A stretch of DNA of 64,000 nt from an uncultured delta proteobacterium (GTDB lineage: Bacteria; Desulfobacterota; WTBG01; CAIYCZ01; CAIRTM01): NCBI GenBank assembly GCA_963804955.1, contig CAWDSQ010000001.1, positions 1 through 64,000 of the forward strand, given 5' to 3'. How positions within the stretch are numbered: position 1 is the first letter of the stretch; every line of letters begins with the position of its first letter. The position numbers were made by a program, and so were the translations under genes. Shown one piece after another: positions 46,440 through 58,089 of the stretch. Below the pieces are notes generated by a model. The model searched no databases. It saw nothing but the letters and a program-made list of their open reading frames with translations, and was not told the origin of the DNA.

Positions 46440-48465
46440 TCATTCCGAAAAGATTTCTTTAATGCTGTCACCTTGCGCTATAAAATACCGGTACCCTGGA
46501 TAGAGCGCCATCATTTCTTTGTTGCGGTCTCCGGAATCCACCACGTAGAGGACCTCGTTGTCCAGAAAAGGAGAATTGGCCATCAAAAGGCAGCCAAAGA
46601 TATGACGTGTAAAAATAATTGCTTTTCCAACCTTCTGATGTTCGACCTCGCGGAGCAGTGGCGGGTTGACTCCCCAATAGTTGCTGCTGTAGACCTTGTA
46701 GAGGGCCGGTACGTTTGACGCCAGGGCGTACAGCGTGCAGAAAACCAGTACGGCCGTTGTGAGCCCATACAGGCGCCTGACAGATACTGCTCTTTTTAGC
46801 ACCATTCTGGTGAGGTGCGGCAGGTTATGAATGCCGCGGGCGGTGAGCAGAATCATGATGCCCGCGGCTTCATACAAAAAGCGGGGGCCGAAGCACCAAT
46901 CTTGAAACCAGTAAAACAGGTAGCCGCCGGCAAGGCAGAGGAAAGAGAAAAACAGCAGACGGTCCCAGCGATTTGTTTTCCCTGATGCAAACAGGATAAA
47001 AACGAATATGAGCGAAGGTATCGGCCACTCGAACAGATACTTGTTCAAACCAACGAAATTGTTCAGGGTATTGCGTATGCCGCGCCCCAGCGTATGGGCC
47101 TCCCCCCAGCCTGCGTGACCAAAACCCGGCAGGTGACCATCGCCGTGGAGCATCTGATACCCGAAAATCAGGGGGCTGCCGTTGGTGAGATAATTAAAGG
47201 CCAGCAACAGAGCTACGAACACCGATGCCGCAAGCGACAGCGCGAGAAACGGCTTTCTGTAGTGCTTGAACTGCCGCCATAAAAGACAGCTGGCGTGGAG
47301 GGCAAACGGCAGCGCAAGAGCCGCCGCCGTCAAGGGACGTATATTGACGATCCAGCCAAGGCAGGCTCCTGCAAGAATTGCAGACAGCGTACTTTTCAGG
47401 CGCACTGTCCGGGCATAAAAAAGCAGGAATACTGTGAACAGGAACAGAGTGGTCACGTGGTTCATGAATTCCGATGACATAAAAAGAATGAACGGAGAGA
47501 AAAGGCTGAGCAACGCAGCCAGTCGCCCGATGGCTTCGCCATAGAACTCCCTGCCCAAAAAGTACAGAAGAACGATTGTAGCAGACCCCAGCAGCGGATT
47601 GATGAACCATGGCGCGCCCGCCAGAACCCCTAGCATCATCAGGAATGAGTGCCCCGGCGGATATTGAGAGTACCATCGGCCATTGTTGATGATATTATCG
47701 TAGTAGAAAAAATCTGAGAGCGGCGGAGACGGGGCTGTCAGGTGACCTGCGGCGAAATATTTTTCCGTGGAACACCTGTGCGACGCTGTCCTGAATATGG
47801 GGGATATGGTCAAAGGCAAACAAGGATACCATGTTTGTCAAAATGAACTCTGTCAGAAAAACAGCCATCAGAAACCACGGCAGCGGTGAGGCGAAAACGA
47901 AATCCCGCAGGCGACGCCAAACGTTCAGATCGATGATATAGGCCGAGATGCCGATAAAGAAAAAGACGATGCCGTAGAGGCCAAGAGTCAGGTAGAGCGC
48001 TGCAGAGCGAACAAACAGCGGCGCGGGGTATCGTTTTTCCTCGAGAAAAAACCCCGAGAAAAAGCTGATCAGGAAGCATAACAGTGTCAGCGATGCAGCC
48101 CACAACGCGGGTTTGTTTTTAAAGAGAGCAGCAACCGCTTCTCTTGCGCCCCGAAACAGGCATGCCACCGCCGGAAGCACCACGAGCGAGAGGACGATAA
48201 AATATTCCCAGGGTATGCGCAGGTGGCCCGTGAAAAGAACATGACGGAATTCAACAAAACTTTCAGGGCCGGAATGCAGGGGGATATAACACATGTGCCA
48301 TGGCTCGCAGCGCCTGAACATCGCCGCCAGAACCAATGCTCCCAGCACTCCCAGGATGCTTTTTAAGGGGAACTTAAAAGGTCGGGTACAACTAAACACG
48401 TGATTGATTCCAAATAGTGATAAACCTGTTAGAATTAATTTTACTGCATTAATACAACTTTTCAA
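46440..48465 (-). CDS. GT-C fold membrane glycosyltransferase (ArnT-like), frameshift near 47760
   Basis: PHIQDSVAQ...GRWYSQYPPG, SPFILFMS, NIRPLTA and FGPRFLYE segments; many TM helices; start uncertain. Confidence 0.8.
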
Positions 48466-48722
48466 TAGAAGTGGGCGGCAGAGGCCGGATACACATAATC
48501 ATTTCATGAAACCCATTTACCTGAGTCTGTAGACCCTTACAACGAGAGATGTTTGGCTCAAGGGTAACATGTATCGAATTTTTCGTCCATTGTCTGATCA
48601 GCCACAAGCGCGACGGATCCCGCAGCCACTGATTTGGGACAGCTGCGGCACCGGCTTATTTATGCCGCACATTGCAAGTGCGGCGGCCGCGACAGTATGC
48701 GGAGTTTTGTATATTTACTCCT

Positions 48723-48893
48723 TTAGAGCTCAGCCATGAGCCGATGCAGCAACTTCAGGTACAGGCGGAGACCGACCGGCTGATACAGATCCACCGTGTG
48801 TCCCCGCTCGGCAATTACACCGAACAGGCAGGCAATTCCATAGTTGATCCCTCGTTCAAGATTGACGGTCGGATAGATAAAAAATATGTCCAT
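48723..48893 (-). pseudogene. 56-aa ORF resembling the N-terminus of a B12-binding radical SAM protein (deletion remnant)
   Basis: MDIFFIYPTVNLERGINYGIACLFGVIAERGHTVDLY...; lies 62 nt downstream of a consensus promoter. Confidence 0.5.
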
Positions 48894-48954
48894 GTGACGC
48901 GGCGGCTCTCTGAACCGGGCACGGCATTAACAAGATGCATTTTTGGATGGGCTG

Positions 48955-48983
48955 ACTATAAAACGAAGGCGACTGTGAGTCAA
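48955..48983 (-). promoter_or_regulatory. Sigma70 promoter
   Basis: Minus strand TTGACT-N17-TATAGT. Confidence 0.6.
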
Positions 48984-49212
48984 GGCAAATGCAGGTATAC
49001 GAGGTGCAGCAGCTGTTTTGAGGGCAGTCTGAGCGGAGGCTAAAGGAGGTTATCTGCACCGAGCGGGTTGTTTCGTTGTACCCCTTTCACCCTAAAGCTC
49101 GCATTAAATACTATTTATCAAGGGAGTAGTTCAGATCATGTGGCGGCACGGCATGCTGTGTTCCGGTTGTCACAAAGTGCGGGAAGTTTTTATCGCAAGC
49201 GAAAATAAGTAA

Positions 49213-49241
49213 TTGACATGAAATATTAAAACATATACGTT
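49213..49241 (+). promoter_or_regulatory. Putative sigma70 promoter of the por operon
   Basis: TTGACA-N17-TACGTT, 36 nt before the ATG at 49277. Confidence 0.55.
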
Positions 49242-49276
49242 GCAAGAAAAATCTGCTAAAACCGGGGGCATATTTC

Positions 49277-49825
49277 ATGATTGAAATAAGATTGCACGGG
49301 CGGGGCGGGGCAGGCGCGGTGACATCGGCGGAGCTGATGGCCATTACAGCCATTAATCTGGGAAAATATGCCCAGGCATTTCCGAGCTTCGGCCCCGAGC
49401 GCCGGGGCGCGCCGGTCGTGGCCTTCTGCCGCATCGATGACAAGCAGATAAAACTGCGCACCAATATCAATAAGCCAAATATCGTTCTGGTTCTTGATCC
49501 CTCCCTTCTTACTATCGTCAATGTAGTGGCAGGACTCAGGCAGGGGGGCATGCTGGTCATAAACAGCCGGCACTCCTGTGAGGACATACGCAAAGAGTTC
49601 GGCTTCACGTGCAGCATTGCCGCGGTGGACGCCACAAAAATCGCCCGCGAGGCAACGGGCCTTCCCATCACCAATGTCGCCATGCTGGGCGCGCTGCTGA
49701 AAGCCCGTGAAATTTTTGCGCCCGACGCCCTGACCGGCCCGGTCAACAAGCGGTTCGGCCGTATTGCCGAAAAAAATCTCATAGCCTTTCATCGCGCTTT
49801 TGCAGAAACCAGCGTCTTAACTTAA
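49277..49825 (+). CDS. porC: Pyruvate/2-oxoacid:ferredoxin oxidoreductase gamma subunit
   Basis: EIRLHGRGGAGAVT, FPSFGPERRGAPV and NVAMLGA motifs. Confidence 0.92.
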   Translation: MIEIRLHGRGGAGAVTSAELMAITAINLGKYAQAFPSFGPERRGAPVVAFCRIDDKQIKLRTNINKPNIVLVLDPSLLTIVNVVAGLRQGGMLVINSRHSCEDIRKEFGFTCSIAAVDATKIAREATGLPITNVAMLGALLKAREIFAPDALTGPVNKRFGRIAEKNLIAFHRAFAETSVLT

Positions 49826-49848
49826 TAGACAGCAGGAAGGAGACAGCT

Positions 49849-50151
49849 TTGGCAAAAACACCAAAGTCTGAACTGGAACTTACCTGGAAAGACCTTGAAG
49901 TGGGTTGCGTGATCAGCAATCCCGGCAATGCCTGCCAGTATAAAACCGGCGATTGGCGCTCAATGAAGCCGGTAGTCGACAAAACACACTGCATCCGCTG
50001 CGGCGTATGCTATATCTTCTGCCCCGACATGGCGGTTCACAAGACCGATGACGGGTATTTTGAGGCTGACCTCTACTATTGCAAGGGATGCGGCATCTGC
50101 GCCCGCGAGTGTTTTACCGGCTGCATAACCATGATACCGGAGGTGGAATAA
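49849..50151 (+). CDS. porD: Pyruvate/2-oxoacid:ferredoxin oxidoreductase delta subunit (2x4Fe-4S)
   Basis: KTGDWRSMKPV, CIRCGVCYIFCP and YCKGCGICAREC motifs. Confidence 0.92.
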   Translation: MAKTPKSELELTWKDLEVGCVISNPGNACQYKTGDWRSMKPVVDKTHCIRCGVCYIFCPDMAVHKTDDGYFEADLYYCKGCGICARECFTGCITMIPEVE

Positions 50152-51329
50152 TGGGGGAGAGAGTAGGCATTGAAGTTTCGATTGCCGCAGCCGAAGCCGT
50201 GAAGATGGCCAATGTTGATGTGATTGCAGCCTACCCCATAACTCCGCAGACCCACATCGTGGAGCACCTGGCGGAGGTCGTGGCCGATGGCGAACTGGAT
50301 GCCGAGTTCATTCCTGTCGAGAGCGAGCATTCTGCCATGAGCGTGTGCTGCGGCTCATCGGCAGTGGGCGCCAGGACATTTACCTGCACAAGCTCCCAGG
50401 GCCTTGCCCTGATGAACGAGATAGTTTTTATCACGGCCTCGATGCGGCTGCCGGTGGTCATGGTGCTTGCCAACCGGTCGCTCTCGGGCCCCTTAAGCAT
50501 CTGGAACGATCACTCCGATGTCATGTCCATCCGCGATTGCGGCTGGGTTCAGGTTTTTGTGGAAAACGGCCAGGAGGTGTTCGACCATATCATGTTCGCT
50601 TTCCGCGTTGCCGAAAGCCAGAATGTTTCCCTGCCCGTAATCGTCAATCTCGACGGGTTCATCCTCACCCATGTGATTGAGCCTGTTGAGTTCTGGGACA
50701 GTGAAACCGTCAAGAAATACCTTCCCCCTTTCAAGCCCGTAAACCGCCTGCACCCGGACAACCCGGTCACCATGGGCGCCTTCGGCATGCCCGGCATTTA
50801 TACCGAAACCCGAAAGGCGCAGGACAGCGCCCTCATAGAGGCAAAGCCGGAAATTCTGAAAGCCTGGCAGGAGATGGCGGATCTCACGGGCAGGCACTAC
50901 AAGCCTGTTGAGTCCTATCACGCCGAAGGGGCAGAAACCCTGTTTCTTACCATGGGCAGCATCGGCGAAACCGTGTCCGTTGCCGTTGACGAGCTGCGGG
51001 CCGAAGGTAAATCAGTCGGCCAGCTGAGCCTGCGGCTGTGGCGGCCCTTTCCCTTTGAAGAGTTCCGGCAGGCGGCAGCCGGCGCTAAAAGAATCATTGT
51101 TCTTGACCGCGCGGTTTCCATGGGCGGCCAGGGCGGCCCCGTGGCAACGGAAATACGCTCGGTGCTGTACAAGGAGAAGAACATGCCCGTGGTCACCAAT
51201 TTCCTGTGCGGTTTTGCCGGCCGGGATGTCACGGTTGAGGATTACAAGGCCATGTTTGAAAAGGCGACAAAGATGTCAAAGCGCAGGGTGCGCGAAGAAG
51301 ACTATATCATATACGGGGTGAGAGAATAG
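50151..51329 (+). CDS. porA: Pyruvate/2-oxoacid:ferredoxin oxidoreductase alpha subunit
   Basis: AYPITPQT, VESEHSAMS, TSSQGL and DGFILTH motifs. Confidence 0.93.
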   Translation: MGERVGIEVSIAAAEAVKMANVDVIAAYPITPQTHIVEHLAEVVADGELDAEFIPVESEHSAMSVCCGSSAVGARTFTCTSSQGLALMNEIVFITASMRLPVVMVLANRSLSGPLSIWNDHSDVMSIRDCGWVQVFVENGQEVFDHIMFAFRVAESQNVSLPVIVNLDGFILTHVIEPVEFWDSETVKKYLPPFKPVNRLHPDNPVTMGAFGMPGIYTETRKAQDSALIEAKPEILKAWQEMADLTGRHYKPVESYHAEGAETLFLTMGSIGETVSVAVDELRAEGKSVGQLSLRLWRPFPFEEFRQAAAGAKRIIVLDRAVSMGGQGGPVATEIRSVLYKEKNMPVVTNFLCGFAGRDVTVEDYKAMFEKATKMSKRRVREEDYIIYGVRE

Positions 51330-52267
51330 TGGAACAGCTCAATGTCTACGCGTCACGCCTGATTTCCAAAAAAGAATACTTTTGCGCCGGGCCACCGGGC
51401 CTGCCAGGGATGCGCCGAGGCCCTTGCCGTGCGCAATGTGGCAAAGGCCCTGGGCAGCAATGTGGTTGTTGCAAGCGCTACAGGCTGCATGGAGATCATC
51501 TCCTCGCCCCTGCCGTTTACCAACTGGCGGGTTCCCTGGATACATGTGGCCTTTGAAAATGCCGCCGCGGTAATATCCGGGGCCGAGGCAGGCACCAAGG
51601 CGCTGGTGCGCAAGGGAATGCTTCCCGATATCAAAACGGTATTTCTCGGCATGGGCGGCGACGGCGCCACCAGCGATATCGGGCTGCAGGCCCTGTCGGG
51701 CGCTTTTGAGCGGCGGCATAATTTCGTCTATGTCTGCTATGACAATGAAGCATACATGAACACGGGCATTCAGCGCTCATCGGCCACGCCCTTCGGCGCG
51801 TCAACCACCACGTCGCCGGCGGGCAAGGTCAAGAAGGGCCAGTTTACCTGGAAAAAGAACATGCCCGAAATCGCCGTCGCCCACAATGTTCCCTATGTGG
51901 CCACGGCCTGCTCAAGCTACCCTTTTGATCTTATCGAAAAAGTGCAGAAGGCGCGCAAGAATGGAAGGGCCCGGCCTATGTGCATATTCTTTCCATTTGC
52001 CCCACAGGCTGGCGCATCCCGCCGGACCGCGCCATCTGGATCGGCCGGCTTGCCGTTGAGACCGGGGTGTTCCCCCTGTATGAAGTGGTCAACGGCAAAT
52101 ACCGCATAACACATGAACTGCCCGAGCGCCGGCCCGTTGAGGAATATCTCAAGGCCCAGGGAAGATTCCGGCACCTGACCCCTGATATGATAGAACGGAT
52201 TCAAAAGCGGGTAGACAAAGAATACAAAAGGCTCAAAACAAAAGAAATCCTTGAAGAAATATGGTGA
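51329..52267 (+). CDS. porB: Pyruvate/2-oxoacid:ferredoxin oxidoreductase beta subunit (two frameshifts)
   Basis: [19 protein letters not shown]...[14 protein letters not shown] (ThDP motif), CPTGW and [11 protein letters not shown]. Confidence 0.9.
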
Positions 52268-52753
52268 GGCAGAGCATGCAGGCAAAGATACTGGAGATCA
52301 TTTCCCGCTACGGCTCGGACAAAGGCTTCCTGGTTCCCATACTGCAGGATGTGCAGAAGGAGTTGAATTACCTGCCCGAAGACGCGCTGGTCATGGTGAG
52401 CACGCTTCTGGAGATTCCCGTCAGCCGCATCTTCGAGGTTGCGACCTTTTACAAGGCCTTCAGCCTTACCCCGCGAGGCCGTCATCAGCTGAGCCTGTGT
52501 CTGGGCACGGCCTGCCATGTGCGCGGCGCGCCCCTTATTTCGGGCCATATCGAGCGGGCGCTGGGCATCAGCGCAGGAGAGACATCACCCGATCTTGAGT
52601 TCACTTTTGAGACGGTCAACTGCCTCGGGGCCTGCGCCCTCGGGCCCGGTTATGGTGGTTGACGGCGACTATCACGGCCAGCTCACCATAGCAAAAACCA
52701 ATGCGATCCTGCGGGATCTTGGCAGGAAGGTGCCCTCTGATGAAGAAGCTTAA
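52261..52753 (+). CDS. NuoE/HydC-like 2Fe-2S subunit (frameshift near 52645)
   Basis: VATFYKAF, CLGTACHVRG and VNCLGACALGPV motifs. Confidence 0.9.
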
Positions 52754-54607
52754 ATCACCCGGTGAGCTTGCAGCCCTGCAGGAGGAAATCCGCAAGGGGC
52801 GCGACCCGAACAAACCCTGCATCACCATCTGCGCGGGCACGGGCTGCCTTGCCTACGGCACGCAGAAGATTATCGAATGCTTCAGGCAGGAGATTGAAAA
52901 GCAGCAGCTGCAGGACAAGGTGCAGCTGCGCACCAGCGGCTGTCACGGTTTCTGCGAGCGCGGACCCATGGTGGTCATCCACCCGCAGAAGATTTTCTAC
53001 CAGCGAATCAAAGCCGAGGATGTTCCCGATATTATCACAAAGACCGTTCTTGCCGGCGAGATCATCGACCGCCTGGCCTATGTCGACCCCGCCACAAAGC
53101 AGAAGATCGTCTATGAGCATGACGTGCCTTTCTATAAGCTCCAGACGCGCTATGTGCTGGGCATGAACGGCGATATCGACCCGGCAAGCTCTTGACGACT
53201 ACCTTGCCATCGGCGGGTACAGCGGCCTTGCCAAGGCCCTCTCCGGCATGAAGCCCGAGGCCGTTATCGAGGAGGTGAAAAAGGCCAATCTTCGCGGCCG
53301 CGGCGGCGGCGGTTTTCCGGCCGGCTGGAAGTGGGACTCCACCCGCAAGGCGGCGGGTGAGCCCAAGTACGTTATCTGTAATGCCGATGAGGGCGACCCC
53401 GGCGCCTATATGGACAGAAGCCTGCTTGAGGGCAATCCGCATCTGGTGCTTGAGGGCATGATTATCGGCGCCTATGCCATCGGCTCAAGCAGGGCTACAT
53501 CTACGTGCGCAATGAATATCCCGCTGGCCGTGCACAATGTCACCCTTGCGATTGAAAAGGCGCGGGAGGCCGGGCTTCTGGGTGAAAATATTCTGGGCTC
53601 CGGGTTCAGCTTCGATATCAAGATCAACCGCGGCGGCGGGGCTTTTGTGTGCGGCGAATCATCGGCCCTGTTTGCCTCCATCGAAGGCCGCAGCGGCGAG
53701 CCCCGGGCAAAATATGTGCATGCAACCGACCAGGGCCTTTACAACAAGCCCACCAACCTCAACAATGTTGAGACCTGGGGCAATGTGCCCCTCATCATCA
53801 ACCGGGGCGCAGACTGGTACGCAAGCATCGGCACCGCAGAACAGCACGGGAACGAAAATATTTTCGCTGGTCGGCAAGATCAACAATACGGGCCTGGTGG
53901 AAGTGCCCATGGGCATTACGCTGCGGGAGATCGTCTATGACATCGGCGGCGGCATCCCCAAAGGCCGCAAATTCAAGGCCGTGCAGACCGGCGGCCCTTC
54001 GGGCGGCTGCATCCCCGAGCAGTTTCTCGACATGCCCGTTGATTTCGACGAGCTGACCAAGATCGGCTCCATGATGGGCTCGGGCGGCATGATCGTCATG
54101 GATGACCGCACCTGCATGGTCGACGTGGCAAAGTATTTTCTGAAATTTCTCGAGGAAGAGTCCTGCGGCAAGTGCACGCCCTGCCGCGAAGGCGTCCTGC
54201 AGATGCGCCTTATACTTGACCGCATCTGCGAGGGCCAGGGAAAGGAAGAAGACATCGACACCCTTGAGTGGATGGGCCAGGCGATCAATGACGGCTCCCT
54301 GTGCGCCCTGGGCGGCTCAGCGCCCAATCCCGTGCTCACCACCATCAAGTATTTCCGCAATGAGTACGAGGCGCATATAAAAGATAAAAAGTGCCCGGCA
54401 GGCGTGTGCAAGGCCCTCATCACCTACAGCGTGGATCCGGTAACATGCACGGGCTGTCATGCCTGCGCCCGGGTGTGCCCCACGCAGGCGGCAACAGGCG
54501 AGAAAAAGCAGACCCACACGATCAGCCTTGAAAAGTGCATTAAGTGCGGCGCCTGCTATGAGGCCTGCAAGTTTGATGCGATAGTGGTACAGTTAGGGCA
54601 GGGTTAA
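52740..54607 (+). CDS. NuoF/HydB-like NADH-binding flavoprotein with N-terminal 2Fe-2S and C-terminal 2x4Fe-4S (several frameshifts)
   Basis: [62 protein letters not shown]...CPAGVC and two CxxCxxCxxxC motifs. Confidence 0.92.
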
Positions 54608-54685
54608 AGTTCAGTGTTAGGTTGCAAGGTTTAAAGTTTGAAGTTAAAGTCCAAGGTTAAGAGTTCAGGGTTCGGGGTTCAGTTT
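54598..54685 (+). repeat. Degenerate heptamer tandem repeat (about RRGTTYR)
   Basis: AAGGTTT AAAGTTT GAAGTTA AAGTCCA AGGTTAA GAGTTCA GGGTTCG GGGTTCA immediately after the flavoprotein gene. Confidence 0.6.
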
Positions 54686-54743
54686 TTGTGGGTTGGGTTA
54701 AGCCCGGATAAAACCTTTGTTTTTGAATAAGTTCATAAAAAGC

Positions 54744-54830
54744 CGTCACCCCGGTGAAAACCGGGGTCCAGAATAAATGCCTGATTCGTTAAAGGCTCTG
54801 GATACGCGAAGCATGTCCGCCGGTATGACG
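54744..54830. repeat. REP-like palindromic element
   Basis: CGTCACCCCGGT-GAAA-ACCGGGGTCCAG...CTGGATA...CCGGTATGACG; same architecture as 37403-37468. Confidence 0.65.
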
Positions 54831-54862
54831 AAAACGACACAACGACTGAAAAGGATGCTGCG

Positions 54863-55581
54863 ATGTCTGACACAGTCACACTGACAATAGACGGCAGAAA
54901 AATAAGCGTTCACGCGGGAACGACGATCATGGAGGCTGCGCGGAGCGTCAATATCGACATTCCCAATCTCTGCAGCAATGAAGAGCTTGCGCCCTACGGC
55001 GCCTGCAGGCTCTGCATGGTTGAAATAGTCCATGGCAAAAGGACCCGCACTGGTGACCTCCTGCATCTATGAGGTGGCAGAGGGCCTTGAGGTGACAGAC
55101 CGTTACCGAGCGCGTGCTCAATGTGCGCAAACTGGTCATCGAGCTGCTGCTTGCCCGCAACCCCTATCATCCCCGGCTGCTCGACATTGCCGGCGGAGAT
55201 CGGCGTGGCGGGCTCGCGCTTTAAGGAGGATGTACAAGGGCTGCATCCTGTGCGGCCAGTGCGTGCGCACCTGCCGCGAGGTGGTGGGCGTTGCCGCCAT
55301 CGGCTTTAAAGGCCGCGGCAGCACCCGCATGGTTGTTACGCCTTTTGACAAGGCGCCGCCCGACTGCATCGCCTGCGGCTCCTGCTCCTATATTTGCCCG
55401 GTCAACGTCATTCCGCTGGAAGATAAGCCAGCCGTGCGCACGATCTGGAAGACCGAGTTTCCCATGGCAGTCGTGCAAAAAGTGCGGCCGCCCCTTTGCT
55501 CCGGAAAAGCAGCTGGCCTACTTCCGTAAAATCGCCAACCTGCCCGAGAATCATTTCGATACCTGTATTCAGTGCAGGTAA
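54863..55581 (+). CDS. Short NuoG/HydA-N-terminal-like Fe-S subunit with no catalytic domain (several frameshifts)
   Basis: IPNLC...GACRLCMVE...LVTSC (2Fe-2S), CILCGQCVRTC, CIACGSCSYICP and terminal CKKC...CIQC. Confidence 0.85.
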
Positions 55582-55934
55582 GCGCCGGAATGGCCGACCT
55601 GCAGCAGCCAACCGCAGGTTGCTTGCGTGGGCCTGCTTTGCGCCTCCTGCGCTCAAGGGATAGGTGCAAAACCTGTTTCCTTGTGCTATCCTTAACCCTG
55701 TTTGGGTCTTTTGACAGCGCTCCCTATCGCCTTTTTATGCTGAAAATTTTTCCGGATGGAACCCTGCATGAGCATATCCGGGCGTTGACTCCCGGCAAAG
55801 GATCCGTGCCTTCAGAGTATCTACACGCAACACATGCCTGCGAAGAAGCACAGGCATCCGGGCTAACCCAACAGATGATTGGTTCCGGGGTTTTCGTTGA
55901 CTCACCAAACAGACTTTGCGGGGGTATACATTCC

Positions 55935-57413
55935 ATGAGTGCGGTCGACACGGATGTCGTCATCATCGGCTCGGGTTTGGGCGGCCTTACCAGCGCAATT
56001 CTTTTGGGAGAGATGGGGCTCAGGGCGATGATCATTGAACGCAACCCCCTTCCCGGCGGGTTGTTGCGCAGTTATACGCGGCAGGGCATTGACTGCGCCG
56101 TCGGGCTCCATTATTTCGGCCCTGCAGGTGAGGGCGAGCTGCTGAGGCAGATGTTTGATGTTCTTGGCGTAACCGACAAGCTGAAGCTGCGGCGTCTGGG
56201 CACAGGCGGAATTCTTGAGCGCTATATTTTTGATGATCTGACCTTTGATCTCCCCCCAACTTTCACGGGTTTTGATCAGGCTCTTCGCAGCATGTGCCCC
56301 AATGAGAGCGATGCAATTGACACTATTGTTTCCGTTGTGCGCTCACTTGCTCATGGCCTGCACTTCGACGCCACAGGCCGGCTGCAGTCAAACCTCTTTT
56401 CCTTTGTGGGCTTCAACCAGAGCATGGAGGATTTTCTGCAAGCCGCGGGATGTTCAAAAAAGCTTCACGATATTCTCACGGTGCACGGGTTCTGGACCGG
56501 GCTGCCCATGGATACATGTCCCGCCTATCTTCTTCTCTACACGCTGGGAGCGCTGCTCCGGTCGGCATGGGAGCTTGGCTGTACCGGCGCGCAGATGGTG
56601 GAGGCCTATGTCGAGCGCAGCCGTGCAACAGGGGCGGACCTGCTGCTGGGCGATCCTGTTGAGCATATTTTTGTTCGCGATGGCCGCGCATGCGGCGTCG
56701 GGCTGAAGTCAGGCCGCACCATGTCATGCCGGAAAATTATCGCGGGCATTCATCCCAAGCTCGTGCTGCCCATGCTTCCCGACGGCGCTATCCCTGCAGA
56801 GTATCGCCAGGGGCTTATGAATCTTGAGGAAACGCCGGGCGCGGTCTGCGTTCGTCTGCTGGTGAGTCAGAAACAGCATGAAGCCCCCGGCTATAACCTG
56901 TTTCGCATTCATAAGGTGGACAGGGTCACTATAGACGGAACTTTTTTTCAGCTGCGGCAGAGTGAACGTGCCGGATGGAATGTGCTCACCATGATCCGGG
57001 GGTCGGACTGCGCGGACTGGAAAAAGTGGCAGGACACGCATACCGGCAGCCGGGGCCCGGACTATGAGCAGGCGAAGATGCGCGCTGCCGAGTCGATGAT
57101 CAAGACGGCCCGCACCGTGCTGGGAACCCTTGAGGATTACCTGATTCTTGATATTTCAACACCCCTTACAACTCGCGACCGGGTTGCAAGTCCCGAGGGC
57201 TCCATGTACGGGCTTCTGCATTCAGTAAAAAACGCTCTGCAATATGCTGTGCTGACACGCCTGCCGGTCCGCTCCCTCTACCTCGTGGGCCAGAGCGCAA
57301 TAGCGCCGGGGCTGCTGGGCGTAACCCTGAGCGTTCTGCGCGGTGTGGGCGAAGTGGCCGGCCGTGCAAATTTTCAGAAATTTCTTGCCGGCAGGCTGGC
57401 GGGGCAGGAGTAG
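55935..57413 (+). CDS. Phytoene dehydrogenase-like FAD-dependent oxidoreductase
   Basis: IIGSGLGGL, ERNPLPGG, GLHY, STPLT, GSMYG and LYLVGQS motifs; start taken at MSAVD. Confidence 0.85.
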   Translation: MSAVDTDVVIIGSGLGGLTSAILLGEMGLRAMIIERNPLPGGLLRSYTRQGIDCAVGLHYFGPAGEGELLRQMFDVLGVTDKLKLRRLGTGGILERYIFDDLTFDLPPTFTGFDQALRSMCPNESDAIDTIVSVVRSLAHGLHFDATGRLQSNLFSFVGFNQSMEDFLQAAGCSKKLHDILTVHGFWTGLPMDTCPAYLLLYTLGALLRSAWELGCTGAQMVEAYVERSRATGADLLLGDPVEHIFVRDGRACGVGLKSGRTMSCRKIIAGIHPKLVLPMLPDGAIPAEYRQGLMNLEETPGAVCVRLLVSQKQHEAPGYNLFRIHKVDRVTIDGTFFQLRQSERAGWNVLTMIRGSDCADWKKWQDTHTGSRGPDYEQAKMRAAESMIKTARTVLGTLEDYLILDISTPLTTRDRVASPEGSMYGLLHSVKNALQYAVLTRLPVRSLYLVGQSAIAPGLLGVTLSVLRGVGEVAGRANFQKFLAGRLAGQE

Positions 57414-57467
57414 CTGCCGGCGTCTACAGATGGAATTAGCTTGGTCCTCACCGGGCACCGATAATAA

Positions 57468-57863
57468 CTACCAGACAATCTCTAGTCCTGGAACGGCATG
57501 CAGGCGTTTATCGCTGGTCACCAGTTTTGCTTTGTAATGCAATGCCGCTGCCGCGATAATACGGTCGGCAGGGTCAAAATGGGCGAAGCCCGCATGGGAT
57601 ACCGAGATTGATGCTATTTCAGATGTGATGGGCAGTACCGTTATTTTGCGGGCGTCAAGGATGAGTTGAAGAAATGTTTGGCCGTCGGTTCCCGGATTGA
57701 TGCGATTTTTTTGTACAAGCATAGCAATTTCCCACAGCGAAATATCGCTGCAGGCAAGTTGCCCCGCATCCTCGGCTTGCTTAATCGCCCGGGCGGCCCG
57801 AGCAGTCAGCTTTTCCGGCTGCAGGGCATCAAAAATCAGGGCGCAGGTATCAAGAACCAGCAT
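57468..57863 (-). CDS. vapC: PIN-domain toxin (VapC family)
   Basis: LVLDTCALI, ISLWEI, DPADRII and LVTSD motifs. Confidence 0.9.
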   Translation of the reverse strand: MLVLDTCALIFDALQPEKLTARAARAIKQAEDAGQLACSDISLWEIAMLVQKNRINPGTDGQTFLQLILDARKITVLPITSEIASISVSHAGFAHFDPADRIIAAAALHYKAKLVTSDKRLHAVPGLEIVW

Positions 57864-58089
57864 TATCGGCTTCCCAGTTTTCACCAATCGGGGAGACAAC
57901 ATCCCCAACCGTGCAGCAGGCGCGAAGCTCGGCCAAGCGCTTGCGCGCGGCCTCACGCTCGTCGCGCACCGGCACGAGGCTTGCCACCACTTTGCCGCGT
58001 GATGTCACCAAAAGCTGTTCTCCTTTTTTTACCTTGCCGATATAGGCGGGCAGATGGCTTCGCAATTCGGTAATATTTATCTGACGCAT
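57850..58089 (-). CDS. Phd/YefM family antitoxin
   Basis: INITELRSHL...GEQLLVTSRGKVVASLVP; overlaps the toxin start. Confidence 0.9.
   Translation of the reverse strand: MRQINITELRSHLPAYIGKVKKGEQLLVTSRGKVVASLVPVRDEREAARKRLAELRACCTVGDVVSPIGENWEADNAGS

What the first reader, a model, noticed from the sequence alone, without database searches (positions are those of the whole stretch)
49277..55581. 2-oxoacid:ferredoxin oxidoreductase operon coupled to a hydrogenase-less bifurcating-type NuoEFG/HydCBA module
Seen: porC-D-A-B is followed by a nuoE-like gene overlapping the porB stop (52261 vs 52267), an overlapping nuoF-like gene, and a roughly 240-aa Fe-S-only nuoG-like gene with no H-cluster, NiFe or Mo/W domain. 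The flavoprotein has an N-terminal thioredoxin-like 2Fe-2S domain, [20 protein letters not shown], the TCMVD/EAHI/CPAGVC ligand set and two C-terminal 4Fe-4S motifs. Established: these features mark HydB/BfuB-type electron-bifurcating subunits, and a short A subunit of this kind resembles BamI. Inference: a Por-Bfu complex that splits electrons from 2-oxoacid oxidation between NAD+ and ferredoxin, or drives reductive carboxylation with NADH plus reduced ferredoxin. I am not aware of a biochemically characterised example.
Basis: partly seen in the sequence, partly recalled or inferred. Interest (0 to 1): 0.75.

Follow-up and report, generated by a model that had tools for sequence, protein, structure and literature searches.

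The report
Pyruvate oxidoreductase joined to bifurcating module
This is a real seven-gene operon that joins a pyruvate:ferredoxin oxidoreductase to a hydrogenase-less NADH/ferredoxin flavoprotein module, but the arrangement was already described in 2022 as the predicted, still unpurified "Por-Bfu" enzyme, so this copy is one more member of it.

Summary
Window 49277-55581 (+) carries porC-porD-porA-porB-bfuC(nuoE)-bfuB(nuoF/hydB)-bfuA(short nuoG). The copy has 13 frame-breaking single-base indels. These are most likely assembly errors: same-genus genomes and public contigs lack the extra bases, and dN/dS is 0.03-0.19.

Schut et al. 2022 (PMC9304861) defined "Por-Bfu" as an uncharacterised Type 2 member of the BfuABC family, found in Dehalococcoidia and syntrophic Proteobacteria. 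This scan has reached the same verdict before on other genomes.

Added here:
- Fifty of 57 informative loci keep all seven genes.
- Four loci place porC after bfuA.
- The por-linked BfuA keeps 16 cysteines, including the zinc-finger set seen in WorA (PDB 9mqx).
- The genome's two [FeFe] hydrogenases and its formate dehydrogenase each have their own bfuCB genes.

Coupled NAD+/ferredoxin reduction by pyruvate, or the reverse pyruvate synthesis, remains an inference. I found no paper that characterises the enzyme.

Verdict: a new member of a known, predicted kind, of modest interest.

The parts
49277..49825 (+). porC, gamma subunit of a four-subunit 2-oxoacid:ferredoxin oxidoreductase (182 aa, intact)
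   Evidence: Pfam POR, E 9.8e-36. The orthologue L004 scores 223.3 bits on NF006321 (pyruvate Fd oxidoreductase gamma), against a cut-off of 225.
49849..50151 (+). porD, delta subunit with two [4Fe-4S] motifs (100 aa, intact)
   Evidence: Pfam Fer4_21 and Fer4. All 8 cluster cysteines are invariant in 52 sequences.
50151..51329 (+). porA, alpha subunit (392 aa from the ATG at 50151; the listed ORF starts at TTG 50079)
   Evidence: Pfam POR_N 1.1e-70 and PFOR_II 1.2e-25. It is 84% identical to the L004 PorA.
51329..52267 (+). porB, TPP- and [4Fe-4S]-binding beta subunit, read over three frames because of 3 inserted bases (about 51380, 51953 and 51970)
   Evidence: Pfam TPP_enzyme_C; frames; indels. 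The intact orthologue passes the PorB equivalog NF008819 (424 bits against a cut-off of 405).
52261..52753 (+). bfuC (nuoE/hydC-like), [2Fe-2S] C1 subunit, with one inserted base near 52646
   Evidence: Pfam 2Fe-2S_thioredx 6.2e-40. The motifs CLGTACHVRG and CLGACALGP are present. Its start overlaps the porB stop.
52740..54607 (+). bfuB (nuoF/hydB-like) flavoprotein. It has an N-terminal [2Fe-2S] domain, the FMN/NADH core, the B1 [4Fe-4S], the Cys/His/Cys/Cys B2 site and two C-terminal [4Fe-4S]. It carries 4 indels (about 53191, 53490, 53523 and 53835).
   Evidence: Pfam hits; motifs. The ligand residues are 97-100% conserved in 58 por-linked BfuB sequences. The best solved relatives of the orthologue are 7t2r_B (794 bits) and 9mqx_B (790 bits).
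54608..54862 (+). 255-nt spacer between bfuB and bfuA. In same-genus genomes the spacer is about 40 nt. It holds a 30-nt hairpin repeat at 54744-54773.
   Evidence: The alignment to same-genus L002 breaks here; sequence. The 30-mer or close copies occur at 6 other places in the genome. A contig of X1 replaces this stretch with 177 other letters (table 5).
54863..55581 (+). bfuA, a short NuoG/HydA N-terminal-like subunit of about 239 aa. It has a [2Fe-2S] (A1), two [4Fe-4S] (A2, A4) and a C-terminal 4-Cys zinc-finger motif, and no His-ligated cluster. It is read over six frame segments because of 5 inserted bases.
   Evidence: Pfam Fer2_4 and Fer4_7; frames. All 16 cysteines are present here and invariant or nearly so in 51 orthologues. 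The orthologue matches WorA 9mqx_A at E 5.9e-49 over residues 3-218.

Best explanation
The seven genes encode one enzyme of the predicted Por-Bfu class. A four-subunit, TPP-dependent pyruvate:ferredoxin oxidoreductase (PorABCD) is wired through the short iron-sulfur subunit BfuA to the BfuBC flavin/iron-sulfur core.

Shown:
- the gene set
- its tight, widely conserved linkage
- the full set of cofactor ligands
- purifying selection on the genes

Inferred mechanism: pyruvate and CoA are split at the TPP site. Single electrons then pass along PorB [4Fe-4S], the two PorD [4Fe-4S] clusters, BfuA A4, A2 and A1, to the B1-FMN-C1 site of BfuBC. After four electrons (two pyruvates), a hydride reduces NAD+ at the FMN. 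Two low-potential electrons leave by C1 and the C-terminal B3/B4 clusters to ferredoxin. Neither acceptor is reduced without the other.

The reaction should be reversible. In this organism, which has acetyl-CoA synthase and a second, free-standing porCDAB, it may run as a pyruvate synthase that draws half of its electrons from NADH and so saves reduced ferredoxin.

The 13 indels in this copy are taken as assembly errors, not as gene decay.
For: Domains and motifs.

Overlapping or closely spaced genes from porC to bfuB.

Intact orthologous clusters: found in 14 of 30 related genomes examined.

Wider synteny: among the 80 best BfuA relatives in GTDB species genomes, 57 have at least 5.7 kb upstream, and 50 of those carry all seven genes on one strand. 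They come from Thermodesulfobacteriota and Dehalococcoidia.

Gene order: in 4 loci (L023-L026) porC lies after bfuA, so por genes flank the bfu genes.

BfuB ligands: the B1, B2-site and B3/B4 ligands are 100% conserved in 58 por-linked BfuB sequences, and two of the B5 ligands 97%.

BfuA: it has the A1, A2 and A4 ligands and the zinc-finger cysteines, and lacks the A3 region. This matches what PMC12318220 says of Por-Bfu.

Tree: 50 of 58 por-linked BfuB sequences fall in one clade (SH-aLRT 97). This clade includes the same-genus copy and the Dehalococcoidia.

Other partners: the genome's two [FeFe] hydrogenase genes and its Sec-containing formate dehydrogenase each sit beside their own bfuC-bfuB pair.

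Indels as errors: the extra bases are absent in the same-genus L002 and L003. Public contigs leave out one base at 8 of the 13 sites. dN/dS is 0.03-0.19 in the 8 indel-free blocks of 285 nt or more, and 0 in a ninth block of 171 nt.

Published hypothesis: PMC9304861.

Mechanism of the core: PMC11829005.
Against: No biochemical, structural or transcript evidence exists for this or any other Por-Bfu in what I searched.

The pyruvate/acetyl-CoA couple (about -500 mV; table in PMC9304861) is not a mid-potential donor. Both acceptor reductions are exergonic, so bifurcation is not thermodynamically required.

In three related genomes of one family (L013, L017, L018), bfuA is not next to por-bfuCB.

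Two BfuB sequences from other contexts nest inside the por-linked clade, and 8 por-linked ones form a second clade. The link has therefore been made or broken more than once.

Of the four POR subunits, only PorB passes its NCBIfam pyruvate-specific cut-off. PorA scores 474.6 against 550, PorC 223.3 against 225 and PorD 110.8 against 120.

A 255-nt spacer with a hairpin separates bfuA from bfuB in this genome.
Confidence: 0.65

Rival explanations
1. There are two separate enzymes that are only co-transcribed. An ordinary PorABCD reduces free ferredoxin, and a free-standing BfuABC re-oxidises that ferredoxin to make NADH, or does the reverse. The two form no physical complex.
For: No physical link has been shown. 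bfuA is missing beside por-bfuCB in L013, L017 and L018. bfuCBA occurs without por in L060. A 255-nt spacer with a hairpin lies before bfuA in the window.
Against: The genes overlap from porA to bfuB. All seven genes are kept together in 50 of 57 informative loci across two phyla. porC lies after bfuA in 4 loci. A BfuABC with a short A subunit has no third-substrate site of its own. In the one solved case (WorABCSL, 9mqx) the short A subunit is the docking subunit.
Confidence: 0.12
2. It is a non-bifurcating, NAD+-linked pyruvate oxidoreductase. All electrons from pyruvate go to NAD+, and ferredoxin is not an obligatory co-substrate. This would be analogous to NADH-dependent phenylglyoxylate dehydrogenase.
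For: This POR lineage is repeatedly tied to pyridine-nucleotide modules. PorB-GltD fusions of about 754-808 aa, 63-68% identical to this PorB, make up 29 of the 120 listed hits (P0006-P0034). Loci L068, L070, L099 and L100 have about 2 kb, too short for bfuC plus bfuB, between porB and bfuA. In L070, the one I read, that space holds a 642-aa gene with NuoF-C-terminal and GltD-like domains. Pyruvate oxidation by NAD+ alone is strongly exergonic.
Against: BfuB keeps the B2-site, B3/B4 and B5 ligands. PMC9304861 reports these as absent from all characterised non-bifurcating homologues. For Wor-Bfu, whose third substrate is also of low potential, tight coupling to both acceptors was measured, as cited in PMC9304861.
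Confidence: 0.12
3. The oxidoreductase acts on another 2-oxoacid, such as 2-oxoisovalerate or an aryl-2-oxoacid, and not on pyruvate. This rival does not exclude the Bfu coupling.
For: On the intact orthologue, PorA, PorC and PorD fall below their pyruvate-specific NCBIfam cut-offs, and the Vor, oxalate and phenylglyoxylate models also score. The genome has a second porCDAB at C35:58232-61170 that could be the housekeeping POR.
Against: The pyruvate models are the best hit for all four subunits, and PorB passes its equivalog cut-off.
Confidence: 0.15
4. The cluster in this genome is a decaying pseudogene array, and the 13 indels are real.
For: There are thirteen frame-breaking indels in 4.3 kb. 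The runs laid were relatives, not proven to be the same strain.
Against: There are no in-frame stops or large deletions once the frames are followed. dN/dS is 0.03-0.19. Twelve of the 13 indels are 1-base insertions. Neighbouring genes at 57-64 kb are fragmented in the same way.
Confidence: 0.05

Closest known systems
Por-Bfu, a predicted Type 2 member of the BfuABC family (Schut et al. 2022, Front Microbiol 13:946711, PMC9304861; example Dehalococcoides mccartyi 195)
   Same: It has the same seven components: four POR subunits plus BfuC, BfuB and a short BfuA with only the A1, A2 and A4 clusters. It is found in the same lineages (Dehalococcoidia and syntrophic 'Proteobacteria'). Like this cluster, it is uncharacterised.
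   Different: Nothing essential differs. This copy comes from an uncultured Thermodesulfobacteriota-type genome, has a 255-nt spacer with a repeat before bfuA, and carries assembly indels. I could not see the paper's species table (Supplementary Table 1), so I cannot say whether this lineage was among its 12 sequences.
WorABCSL of Acetomicrobium mobile (PDB 9mqx; PMC12318220)
   Same: It is the closest solved relative of both BfuA (WorA, 247 aa, E 5.9e-49) and BfuB (790 bits). Its A subunit is also short, lacks A3 and has a C-terminal zinc finger. Bifurcation with a low-potential third substrate has been shown for it.
   Different: Its third module is a tungsten aldehyde oxidoreductase with a WorS polyferredoxin wire, recruited by a C-terminal helix of WorA. 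The BfuA here ends at the zinc finger without that helix, as the paper itself notes for Por-Bfu.
HydABC electron-bifurcating [FeFe] hydrogenases (T. maritima 7p5h, A. woodii 7q4v, T. kivui 8a6t)
   Same: The BfuBC core and ligand set are the same (698-766 bits to BfuB).
   Different: HydA carries the H-cluster domain and the A3 and A5 clusters. Here the A subunit stops after A4 and the zinc finger, and the catalytic module is a POR.
BamBCDEFGHI class II benzoyl-CoA reductase (BamGHI is its BfuCBA module)
   Same: It is a Type 2 Bfu with a short BfuA-like BamI carrying A1, A2 and A4, according to PMC9304861.
   Different: Its partner modules are HdrA-like and tungsten BamBC. I did not compare the sequences directly here.
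NADH-dependent phenylglyoxylate dehydrogenase PadEFGHI
   Same: It is a POR-family 2-oxoacid oxidoreductase that reduces NAD+. Its NCBIfam models hit PorC, PorD, PorA and PorB at 76-310 bits, all below their cut-offs.
   Different: Its NAD+ module is a single FAD subunit (PadH), not a NuoEF-type BfuBC core. That it works without bifurcation is recalled, not taken from a call.
Free-standing four-subunit PorABCD (archaeal and Thermotoga type)
   Same: The subunit set, TPP motif and cluster ligands are the same. The archaeal PorA and PorD models are the best hits for those subunits, and PorB passes NF008819.
   Different: It is not followed by bfu genes, and ferredoxin is its only acceptor.

Membership tests
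BfuABC family (BfuBC core, Schut et al. 2022) | BfuB has a NuoF-type FMN/NADH core with the B1 [4Fe-4S] cluster | tested here: met
   Pfam finds Complex1_51K, SLBB and NADH_4Fe-4S. The motifs [12 protein letters not shown]...SLCALG are in the window. The four cysteines are 100% conserved in 58 por-linked BfuB sequences.
BfuABC family (BfuBC core, Schut et al. 2022) | The extra BfuB sites that non-bifurcating homologues lack: the B2 site (Cys/His/Cys/Cys), the C-terminal B3/B4 2x[4Fe-4S], and the N-terminal thioredoxin-like B5 [2Fe-2S] | tested here: met
   TCMVD, EAHI and [18 protein letters not shown] and [17 protein letters not shown]...CHGFC. There is a Pfam 2Fe-2S_thioredx hit on the N-terminal piece. 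Conservation is 97-100% for the ligands scored. The first B5 cysteine pair fell below 90%; I did not check why, though many rows are tblastn matches that may start after it.
BfuABC family (BfuBC core, Schut et al. 2022) | BfuC carries the C1 [2Fe-2S] cluster | tested here: met
   Pfam 2Fe-2S_thioredx 6.2e-40. CLGTACHVRG and CLGACALGP are present.
BfuABC family (BfuBC core, Schut et al. 2022) | Tightly coupled reduction of NAD+ and ferredoxin by the third substrate | not testable with these tools
   This needs an enzyme assay. No characterised Por-Bfu turned up in the literature searches.
Type 2 BfuA (clade-45 kind: Wor, Bam, Por, Mbh) | A1 [2Fe-2S], A2 and A4 [4Fe-4S] are present, and the His-ligated A3 is absent | tested here: met
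   The 4+4+4 cysteines are present in the window and conserved in 51 orthologues: ten are invariant and two nearly so. In the alignment to HydA 8a6t_A, the orthologue lacks the stretch between the [2Fe-2S] domain and the ferredoxin-like domain. That this stretch holds the A3 ligands in HydA is recalled, not taken from a call.
Type 2 BfuA (clade-45 kind: Wor, Bam, Por, Mbh) | A C-terminal four-Cys zinc-finger motif. For Por-Bfu, no C-terminal adaptor helix (PMC12318220). | tested here: met
   The window has CKKC...CIQCR at the very C-terminus. C203, C206, C233 and C236 are invariant in 51 sequences. The paper's statement was read. Metal content was not tested.
Por-Bfu | Four POR subunit genes lie in one same-strand cluster with bfuC, bfuB and bfuA | tested here: met
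   Shown for the window. Conserved in 50 of 57 informative loci and in 14 of 30 related genomes.
Por-Bfu | BfuB belongs to a por-associated clade | tested here: met
   The same-genus orthologue (L011) lies in a clade that holds 50 of the 58 por-linked BfuB sequences, with SH-aLRT 97. Two non-por rows nest inside it, and 8 por-linked rows form a second clade. The window's own BfuB was not in the tree because its frames are broken. Its pieces are 54-83% identical to the L004 BfuB.
Por-Bfu | One physical complex of seven subunits | not testable with these tools
   This needs co-purification or a structure. The gene-order evidence (porC after bfuA in 4 loci) is indirect.
Four-subunit pyruvate:ferredoxin oxidoreductase (PorABCD) | A TPP-binding GDG...NE...N motif and the [4Fe-4S] ligands in PorB, and two [4Fe-4S] clusters in PorD | tested here: met
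   The window's PorB reads [12 protein letters not shown] and [10 protein letters not shown]. G110, D111, G112, C25, C28, C53 and C223 are invariant in 51 orthologues. The 8 PorD cysteines are invariant.
Four-subunit pyruvate:ferredoxin oxidoreductase (PorABCD) | Pyruvate specificity, judged by the NCBIfam equivalog cut-offs | tested here: inconclusive
   On the intact orthologue: PorB 424 against a cut-off of 405 (pass); PorA 474.6 against 550; PorC 223.3 against 225; PorD 110.8 against 120.

The most novel reading that the evidence does not exclude
The PorB-PorD pair may be the generic docking wire for short BfuA subunits, and it may have been reused without catalysis.

The same genome has four further clusters: C7:379.8-384.1 kb, C22:76.5-80.7 kb, C24:198.9-202.2 kb and C25:16.8-21.2 kb. 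In each, a PorD-like ferredoxin and a PorB homologue precede bfuC-bfuB (and bfuA in three of them). No PorA or PorC is present. In the two I aligned (C7 and C22), the PorB homologue has lost the GDG thiamine motif. In the two clusters I scanned most fully (C7 and C22), geranylgeranyl-reductase-family or related FAD-binding flavoproteins lie beside them.

If so, Por-Bfu would be the catalytic ancestor of a larger, undescribed set of Bfu enzymes whose third substrates are handled by these flavoenzymes.
Probability: 0.3. Interest if true: 0.6.

Novelty: new member of a known kind. Interest (0 to 1): 0.3.

Why it matters
Por-Bfu would tie the central acetyl-CoA/pyruvate node of strict anaerobes directly to both the NADH and the ferredoxin pools. 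Running in reverse, it could make pyruvate while spending less reduced ferredoxin. That matters for organisms living near the thermodynamic limit, such as syntrophs and organohalide respirers.

The enzyme has been predicted since 2022 but has never been purified. This window adds one more natural copy. The comparative survey here gives stronger genetic grounds to treat it as one enzyme: 50 of 57 loci keep all seven genes, and por genes flank the bfu genes in four loci. It does not open a new question.

Tried and rejected
- Complex prediction. I folded PorA, PorB, PorD and BfuA residues 100-237 of the G025 orthologues, each with an alignment. The verdict was 'no answer', because a control with PorA replaced scored as high. 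I do not use this for or against binding.
- Sequencing runs. No RNA holder was listed, so nothing can be said on transcription. The best DNA holders held only 0.16-0.26 of the sampled words.
- Rfam scan of 48300-55700 at E up to 0.1: no match.
- Promoter and terminator scans: 7 promoter-like sites against 5.4 +/- 2.1 in shuffles, and 16 terminator-like sites against 10.3 +/- 3.4. This shows no usable signal for or against internal transcript ends.
- Search for longer proteins holding PorB. The best 120 of 933 listed were intein-bearing PorB and PorB-GltD fusions. None of the 120 carried a Fer2_4 (BfuA-like) domain.
- dN/dS for porA. I dropped this block because a compensating gap pair at 50633/50638 shifted my codon reading and gave false stops.
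- Supplementary Table 1 of PMC9304861, the species list, is not held as text. I could not check which 'syntrophic Proteobacteria' the authors counted.
- The CrtD/amine-oxidase-like ORF downstream (55572-57413). I considered it as an eighth gene and rejected it. It is not found after bfuA in the related loci examined.
- Two papers that held NuoEF and pyruvate terms (PMC6129605, PMC5736913; passages only) say nothing on a por-nuoEF link.

Full report
**What is in the window**

Between 49277 and 55581 on the + strand lie seven genes in the order porC, porD, porA, porB, nuoE-like (bfuC), nuoF/hydB-like (bfuB) and a short nuoG-like gene (bfuA).

Pfam assigns the following:
- POR to porC
- a 2x[4Fe-4S] domain to porD
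- POR_N and PFOR_II to porA
- TPP_enzyme_C to porB
- 2Fe-2S_thioredx to bfuC
- 2Fe-2S_thioredx, Complex1_51K, SLBB, NADH_4Fe-4S and two Fer4 motifs to the pieces of bfuB
- Fer2_4 plus a 4Fe-4S dicluster domain to the pieces of bfuA

The spacing is tight as far as bfuB:
- porC to porD: 23 nt apart.
- porD to porA: the ATG at 50151 overlaps the porD stop.
- porA to porB: the GTG at 51329 overlaps the porA stop.
- porB to bfuC: 7 nt of overlap (ATG 52261; the stop ends at 52267).
- bfuC to bfuB: 14 nt of overlap (ATG 52740; stop at 52751-52753).

**The broken frames**

porB, bfuC, bfuB and bfuA are each spread over several frames. Following the frames and aligning to two same-genus genomes at 91% nucleotide identity (L002 and L003) gives 13 frame-breaking one-base indels: porB 3, bfuC 1, bfuB 4 and bfuA 5. 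Twelve are insertions in the window and one is a deletion.

Three results argue that these are assembly errors and not decay.
- Once the frames are followed there are no in-frame stops, and all cofactor ligands are in place.
- dN/dS against the same-genus copy is 0.03-0.19 in the eight indel-free blocks of 285 nt or more, and 0 in a ninth block of 171 nt. I dropped the porA block because a compensating gap pair spoiled my codon reading.
- Contigs of four public runs, laid at 92% likeness or more, leave out one base at or within five bases of eight of the 13 sites: 51380, 52641/52645, 53190, 53839, 55050, 55096/55098, 55192 and 55232.

Those runs held only 0.16-0.26 of the sampled words. They are close relatives, not proven to be the same strain.

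Genes at 57-64 kb are fragmented in the same way.

**Related sequences**

A DNA search of 30 related genomes found contiguous por-bfu matches. ORF maps of the fetched loci show a por-bfuCB linkage in 14 of the 30 genomes: G002, G004, G012, G017-G021, G023 and G025-G029.

Intact genes in these loci have the following sizes (ORF lengths from the first possible start codon run a little longer in some loci):
- PorC: 182-188 aa
- PorD: 97-100 aa
- PorA: about 392 aa
- PorB: 307-308 aa
- BfuC: 148-160 aa
- BfuB: 617-619 aa
- BfuA: 236-237 aa

In three genomes of one family (L013, L017, L018) no bfuA follows bfuB. In a fourth (L014) the contig ends 385 nt after bfuB.

A scan of one genome per GTDB species with an alignment of BfuA returned 80 loci. 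They come from Thermodesulfobacteriota-type MAGs (Desulfobacteraceae, Desulfatiglandales, Syntrophales, Desulfobaccales, Syntrophorhabdus and others) and from many Dehalococcoidia.

Of the 57 loci with at least 5.7 kb upstream of the match, 50 carry all seven genes on one strand. The seven exceptions are:
- L022 and L093: bfuA only.
- L060: bfuCBA only.
- L061: no porC upstream, and the contig ends in bfuA.
- L068, L070 and L100: another gene in place of bfuCB.

In four loci (L023-L026) porC lies after bfuA, so por genes flank the bfu genes. Schut et al. used this kind of gene-order argument for Codh-Bfu.

**Cofactor sites**

In 58 por-linked BfuB sequences:
- the four B1 cysteines are 100% conserved
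- the Cys/His/Cys/Cys set of the B2 site is 100% conserved
- the eight cysteines of the C-terminal B3/B4 clusters are 100% conserved
- two of the N-terminal [2Fe-2S] cysteines are 97% conserved

The other N-terminal pair fell under 90%. I did not check why, though many rows were tblastn matches that may start after it.

In 51 por-linked BfuA sequences, the four [2Fe-2S] cysteines, the eight cysteines of two [4Fe-4S] motifs and four C-terminal cysteines (CxxC...CxxC) are invariant or nearly so. All 16 are present in the window.

The best solved relatives of the intact orthologue are as follows.
- For BfuB: A. mobile NiFe-HydB (7t2r_B, 794 bits), WorB (9mqx_B, 790 bits) and the HydB subunits of T. 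kivui, A. woodii and T. maritima.
- For BfuA: WorA (9mqx_A, 247 aa, E 5.9e-49, residues 3-218).

Against HydA, the orthologue lacks the stretch between the [2Fe-2S] domain and the ferredoxin-like domain. That this stretch holds the His-ligated A3 cluster in HydA is recalled, not taken from a call.

**What is known**

Schut et al. 2022 (PMC9304861; passages and section 5 read) define the BfuABC family by an invariant BfuBC core with six clusters. They state that non-bifurcating homologues lack B2-B5. They also describe 'Por-Bfu (A-G)':
- It is an uncharacterised Type 2 enzyme with four POR subunits.
- They counted 12 sequences.
- They propose that it makes pyruvate from NADH and ferredoxin under energy limitation, or oxidises pyruvate only when NAD+ and ferredoxin are reduced together.

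The WorABCSL structure paper (PMC12318220; passages read) states that the WorA homologue of Por-Bfu has the zinc-finger motif but lacks the C-terminal helix. That is what I see here.

The term 'Por-Bfu' occurs in only these two papers of the library. Two further searches found no characterised example.

The scan itself has reported this arrangement before in other genomes, with the same verdict (for example e1-974606).

**Tree**

I built a quick maximum-likelihood tree of 58 por-linked BfuB sequences and 13 BfuB paralogues from other contexts.
- It puts 50 por-linked rows in one clade (SH-aLRT 97). This clade includes the same-genus copy L011 and all 15 Dehalococcoidia rows in the tree. Two non-por rows (L122, L131) nest inside it.
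- Eight por-linked rows (Desulfobaccales and Syntrophobacterales type) form a second clade, next to hydrogenase-linked BfuB sequences.

This agrees with the paper's statement that Por-Bfu occurs in several BfuB clades (35, 44 and 45). The window's own BfuB could not be put in the tree because its frames are broken.

**Genome context**

The genome is 4.26 Mb in 36 contigs and 87% complete. It also holds:
- two [FeFe] hydrogenase genes, each beside its own bfuC-bfuB pair (C24:12825-16705 and C9:23187-28697)
- a formate dehydrogenase with an in-frame TGA, beside another bfuC-bfuB pair (C7:184087-189233)
- a free-standing porCDAB (C35:58232-61170)
- an acetyl-CoA synthase gene (CdhC domain, C32)

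I found no [NiFe] hydrogenase, no dsrA and no single-chain PFOR. In an 87%-complete genome this is 'not found', not 'absent'.

It is answered as follows: such enzymes exist, but each already has its own flavoprotein genes next to it.

**How it most likely works**

The gene set, the ligands, the linkage and the selection are shown. The rest is inferred.

1. TPP-dependent cleavage of pyruvate and CoA takes place at PorAB.
2. Single electrons move through the PorB cluster and the two PorD clusters to BfuA A4, then A2 and A1.
3. Four electrons collect at the B1-FMN-C1 site. PMC11829005 names this site the minimal bifurcation site (passages read).
4. A hydride goes to NAD+.
5. Two low-potential electrons go by way of C1 and B3/B4 to ferredoxin.

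The direction in vivo is open. With acetyl-CoA synthase and a second POR present, a biosynthetic pyruvate-synthase role is plausible. I give the whole statement 0.65.

**Rivals**

- Two co-transcribed but separate enzymes: 0.12.
- A non-bifurcating NAD+-linked POR: 0.12. Two findings support this one. There are PorB-GltD fusions 63-68% identical to this PorB. There are also loci in which a gene with NuoF-C-terminal and GltD-like domains replaces bfuCB.
- A different 2-oxoacid as substrate: 0.15, and compatible with the Bfu coupling. Only PorB passes its pyruvate equivalog cut-off.
- A real pseudogene: 0.05.

**Verdict**

The thing is a new member of a kind already in print as a prediction. Interest is 0.3.

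The most novel reading my evidence leaves open concerns the side finding below, the TPP-less PorB/PorD-like pairs in front of other bfu modules in this genome. An earlier scan note already flagged this on another genome.

Noticed in passing
G000 C7:379816-384146 (L101), C22:76512-80728 (L102), C24:198866-202249 (L104), C25:16836-21183 (L105): There are four further clusters in this genome. Each has a PorD-like 2x[4Fe-4S] ferredoxin and a PorB homologue directly upstream of bfuC-bfuB (and bfuA in three of them). None has a PorA or PorC.

In the two PorB homologues I aligned (C7 and C22), the GDG thiamine motif is lost (for example to IDR). The CxxC and PCPTG cysteines are kept.

Geranylgeranyl-reductase-family or related FAD-binding proteins lie beside the C7 and C22 clusters.

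Full-length homologues, 39-99% identical, occur in at least 11 of the 30 related genomes. By coordinates, several sit next to a nuoF paralogue.

An earlier scan note (e1-5041044) read the same thing as an iron-sulfur adaptor. One literature search found nothing on it.
   Followed up: partly
L070:6030-7958 (also L068, L099, L100); proteins P0006-P0034: This is a variant POR cluster. In L070 a 642-aa protein lies between porB and the short bfuA, in place of bfuC and bfuB. It has a NuoF-C-terminal 4Fe-4S domain, Fer4_20 and Pyr_redox_2, so it is GltD/NfnB-like. L068, L099 and L100 have a gap of the same size, which I did not read.

Separately, 29 protein clusters of about 754-808 aa fuse a PorB, 63-68% identical to this lineage, to a GltD-like NAD(P)H module.

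Both point to repeated coupling of this POR lineage to pyridine nucleotides.
   Followed up: partly
L023, L024, L025, L026 (MAG loci): This is a gene-order variant, porD-porA-porB-bfuC-bfuB-bfuA-porC. The gamma subunit gene follows bfuA, so por genes flank the bfu genes. Three of these loci (L023, L024, L026) form one small clade in the BfuB tree together with L061.
   Followed up: partly
L013 (G019), L017 (G020), L018 (G018): In one related family the cluster is porCDAB-bfuC-bfuB without an adjacent bfuA. Two unrelated ORFs of about 315-359 aa follow instead. I did not check whether bfuA lies elsewhere in those genomes.
   Followed up: no
window 54608-54862, core 54744-54773: The bfuB-bfuA spacer is 255 nt here, against about 40 nt in a same-genus genome. 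It contains a 30-nt hairpin-forming repeat (CCCCGG-loop-CCGGGG core). The exact 30-mer occurs at two other places in the genome, and close copies (91-97% over 27-38 nt) at four more. Summed contig depth rises over 54625-54841 in two of the four runs, X3 and X4.
   Followed up: partly
window 55572-57413 (+), probable true start near 55950: This is an FAD-dependent oxidoreductase of the amine-oxidase/phytoene-desaturase (CrtD-like) family. As an ORF it overlaps the bfuA stop. It is not conserved after bfuA in the related loci.
   Followed up: partly
G000 C24:12825-16705, C9:23187-28697, C7:184087-189233: The genome carries at least eight further bfuCB-type flavoprotein modules. They include two beside [FeFe] hydrogenase genes and one beside a formate dehydrogenase with in-frame TGA. 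I found no [NiFe] hydrogenase and no dsrA in this 87%-complete genome.
   Followed up: partly
proteins P0001-P0005 and P0035 onward: Many PorB homologues of about 640-870 aa carry intein domains (PF14890, PF14528). The two that bear an organism name are from Methanophagales-type archaea.
   Followed up: no
window 50001-58000: G+C is 0.56-0.59 across the operon, against 0.33-0.54 in most of the rest of the window and 0.526 for the contig. Within the window's own family, por-bfu was seen only in its genus and one other genus, so the distribution is patchy.
   Followed up: no
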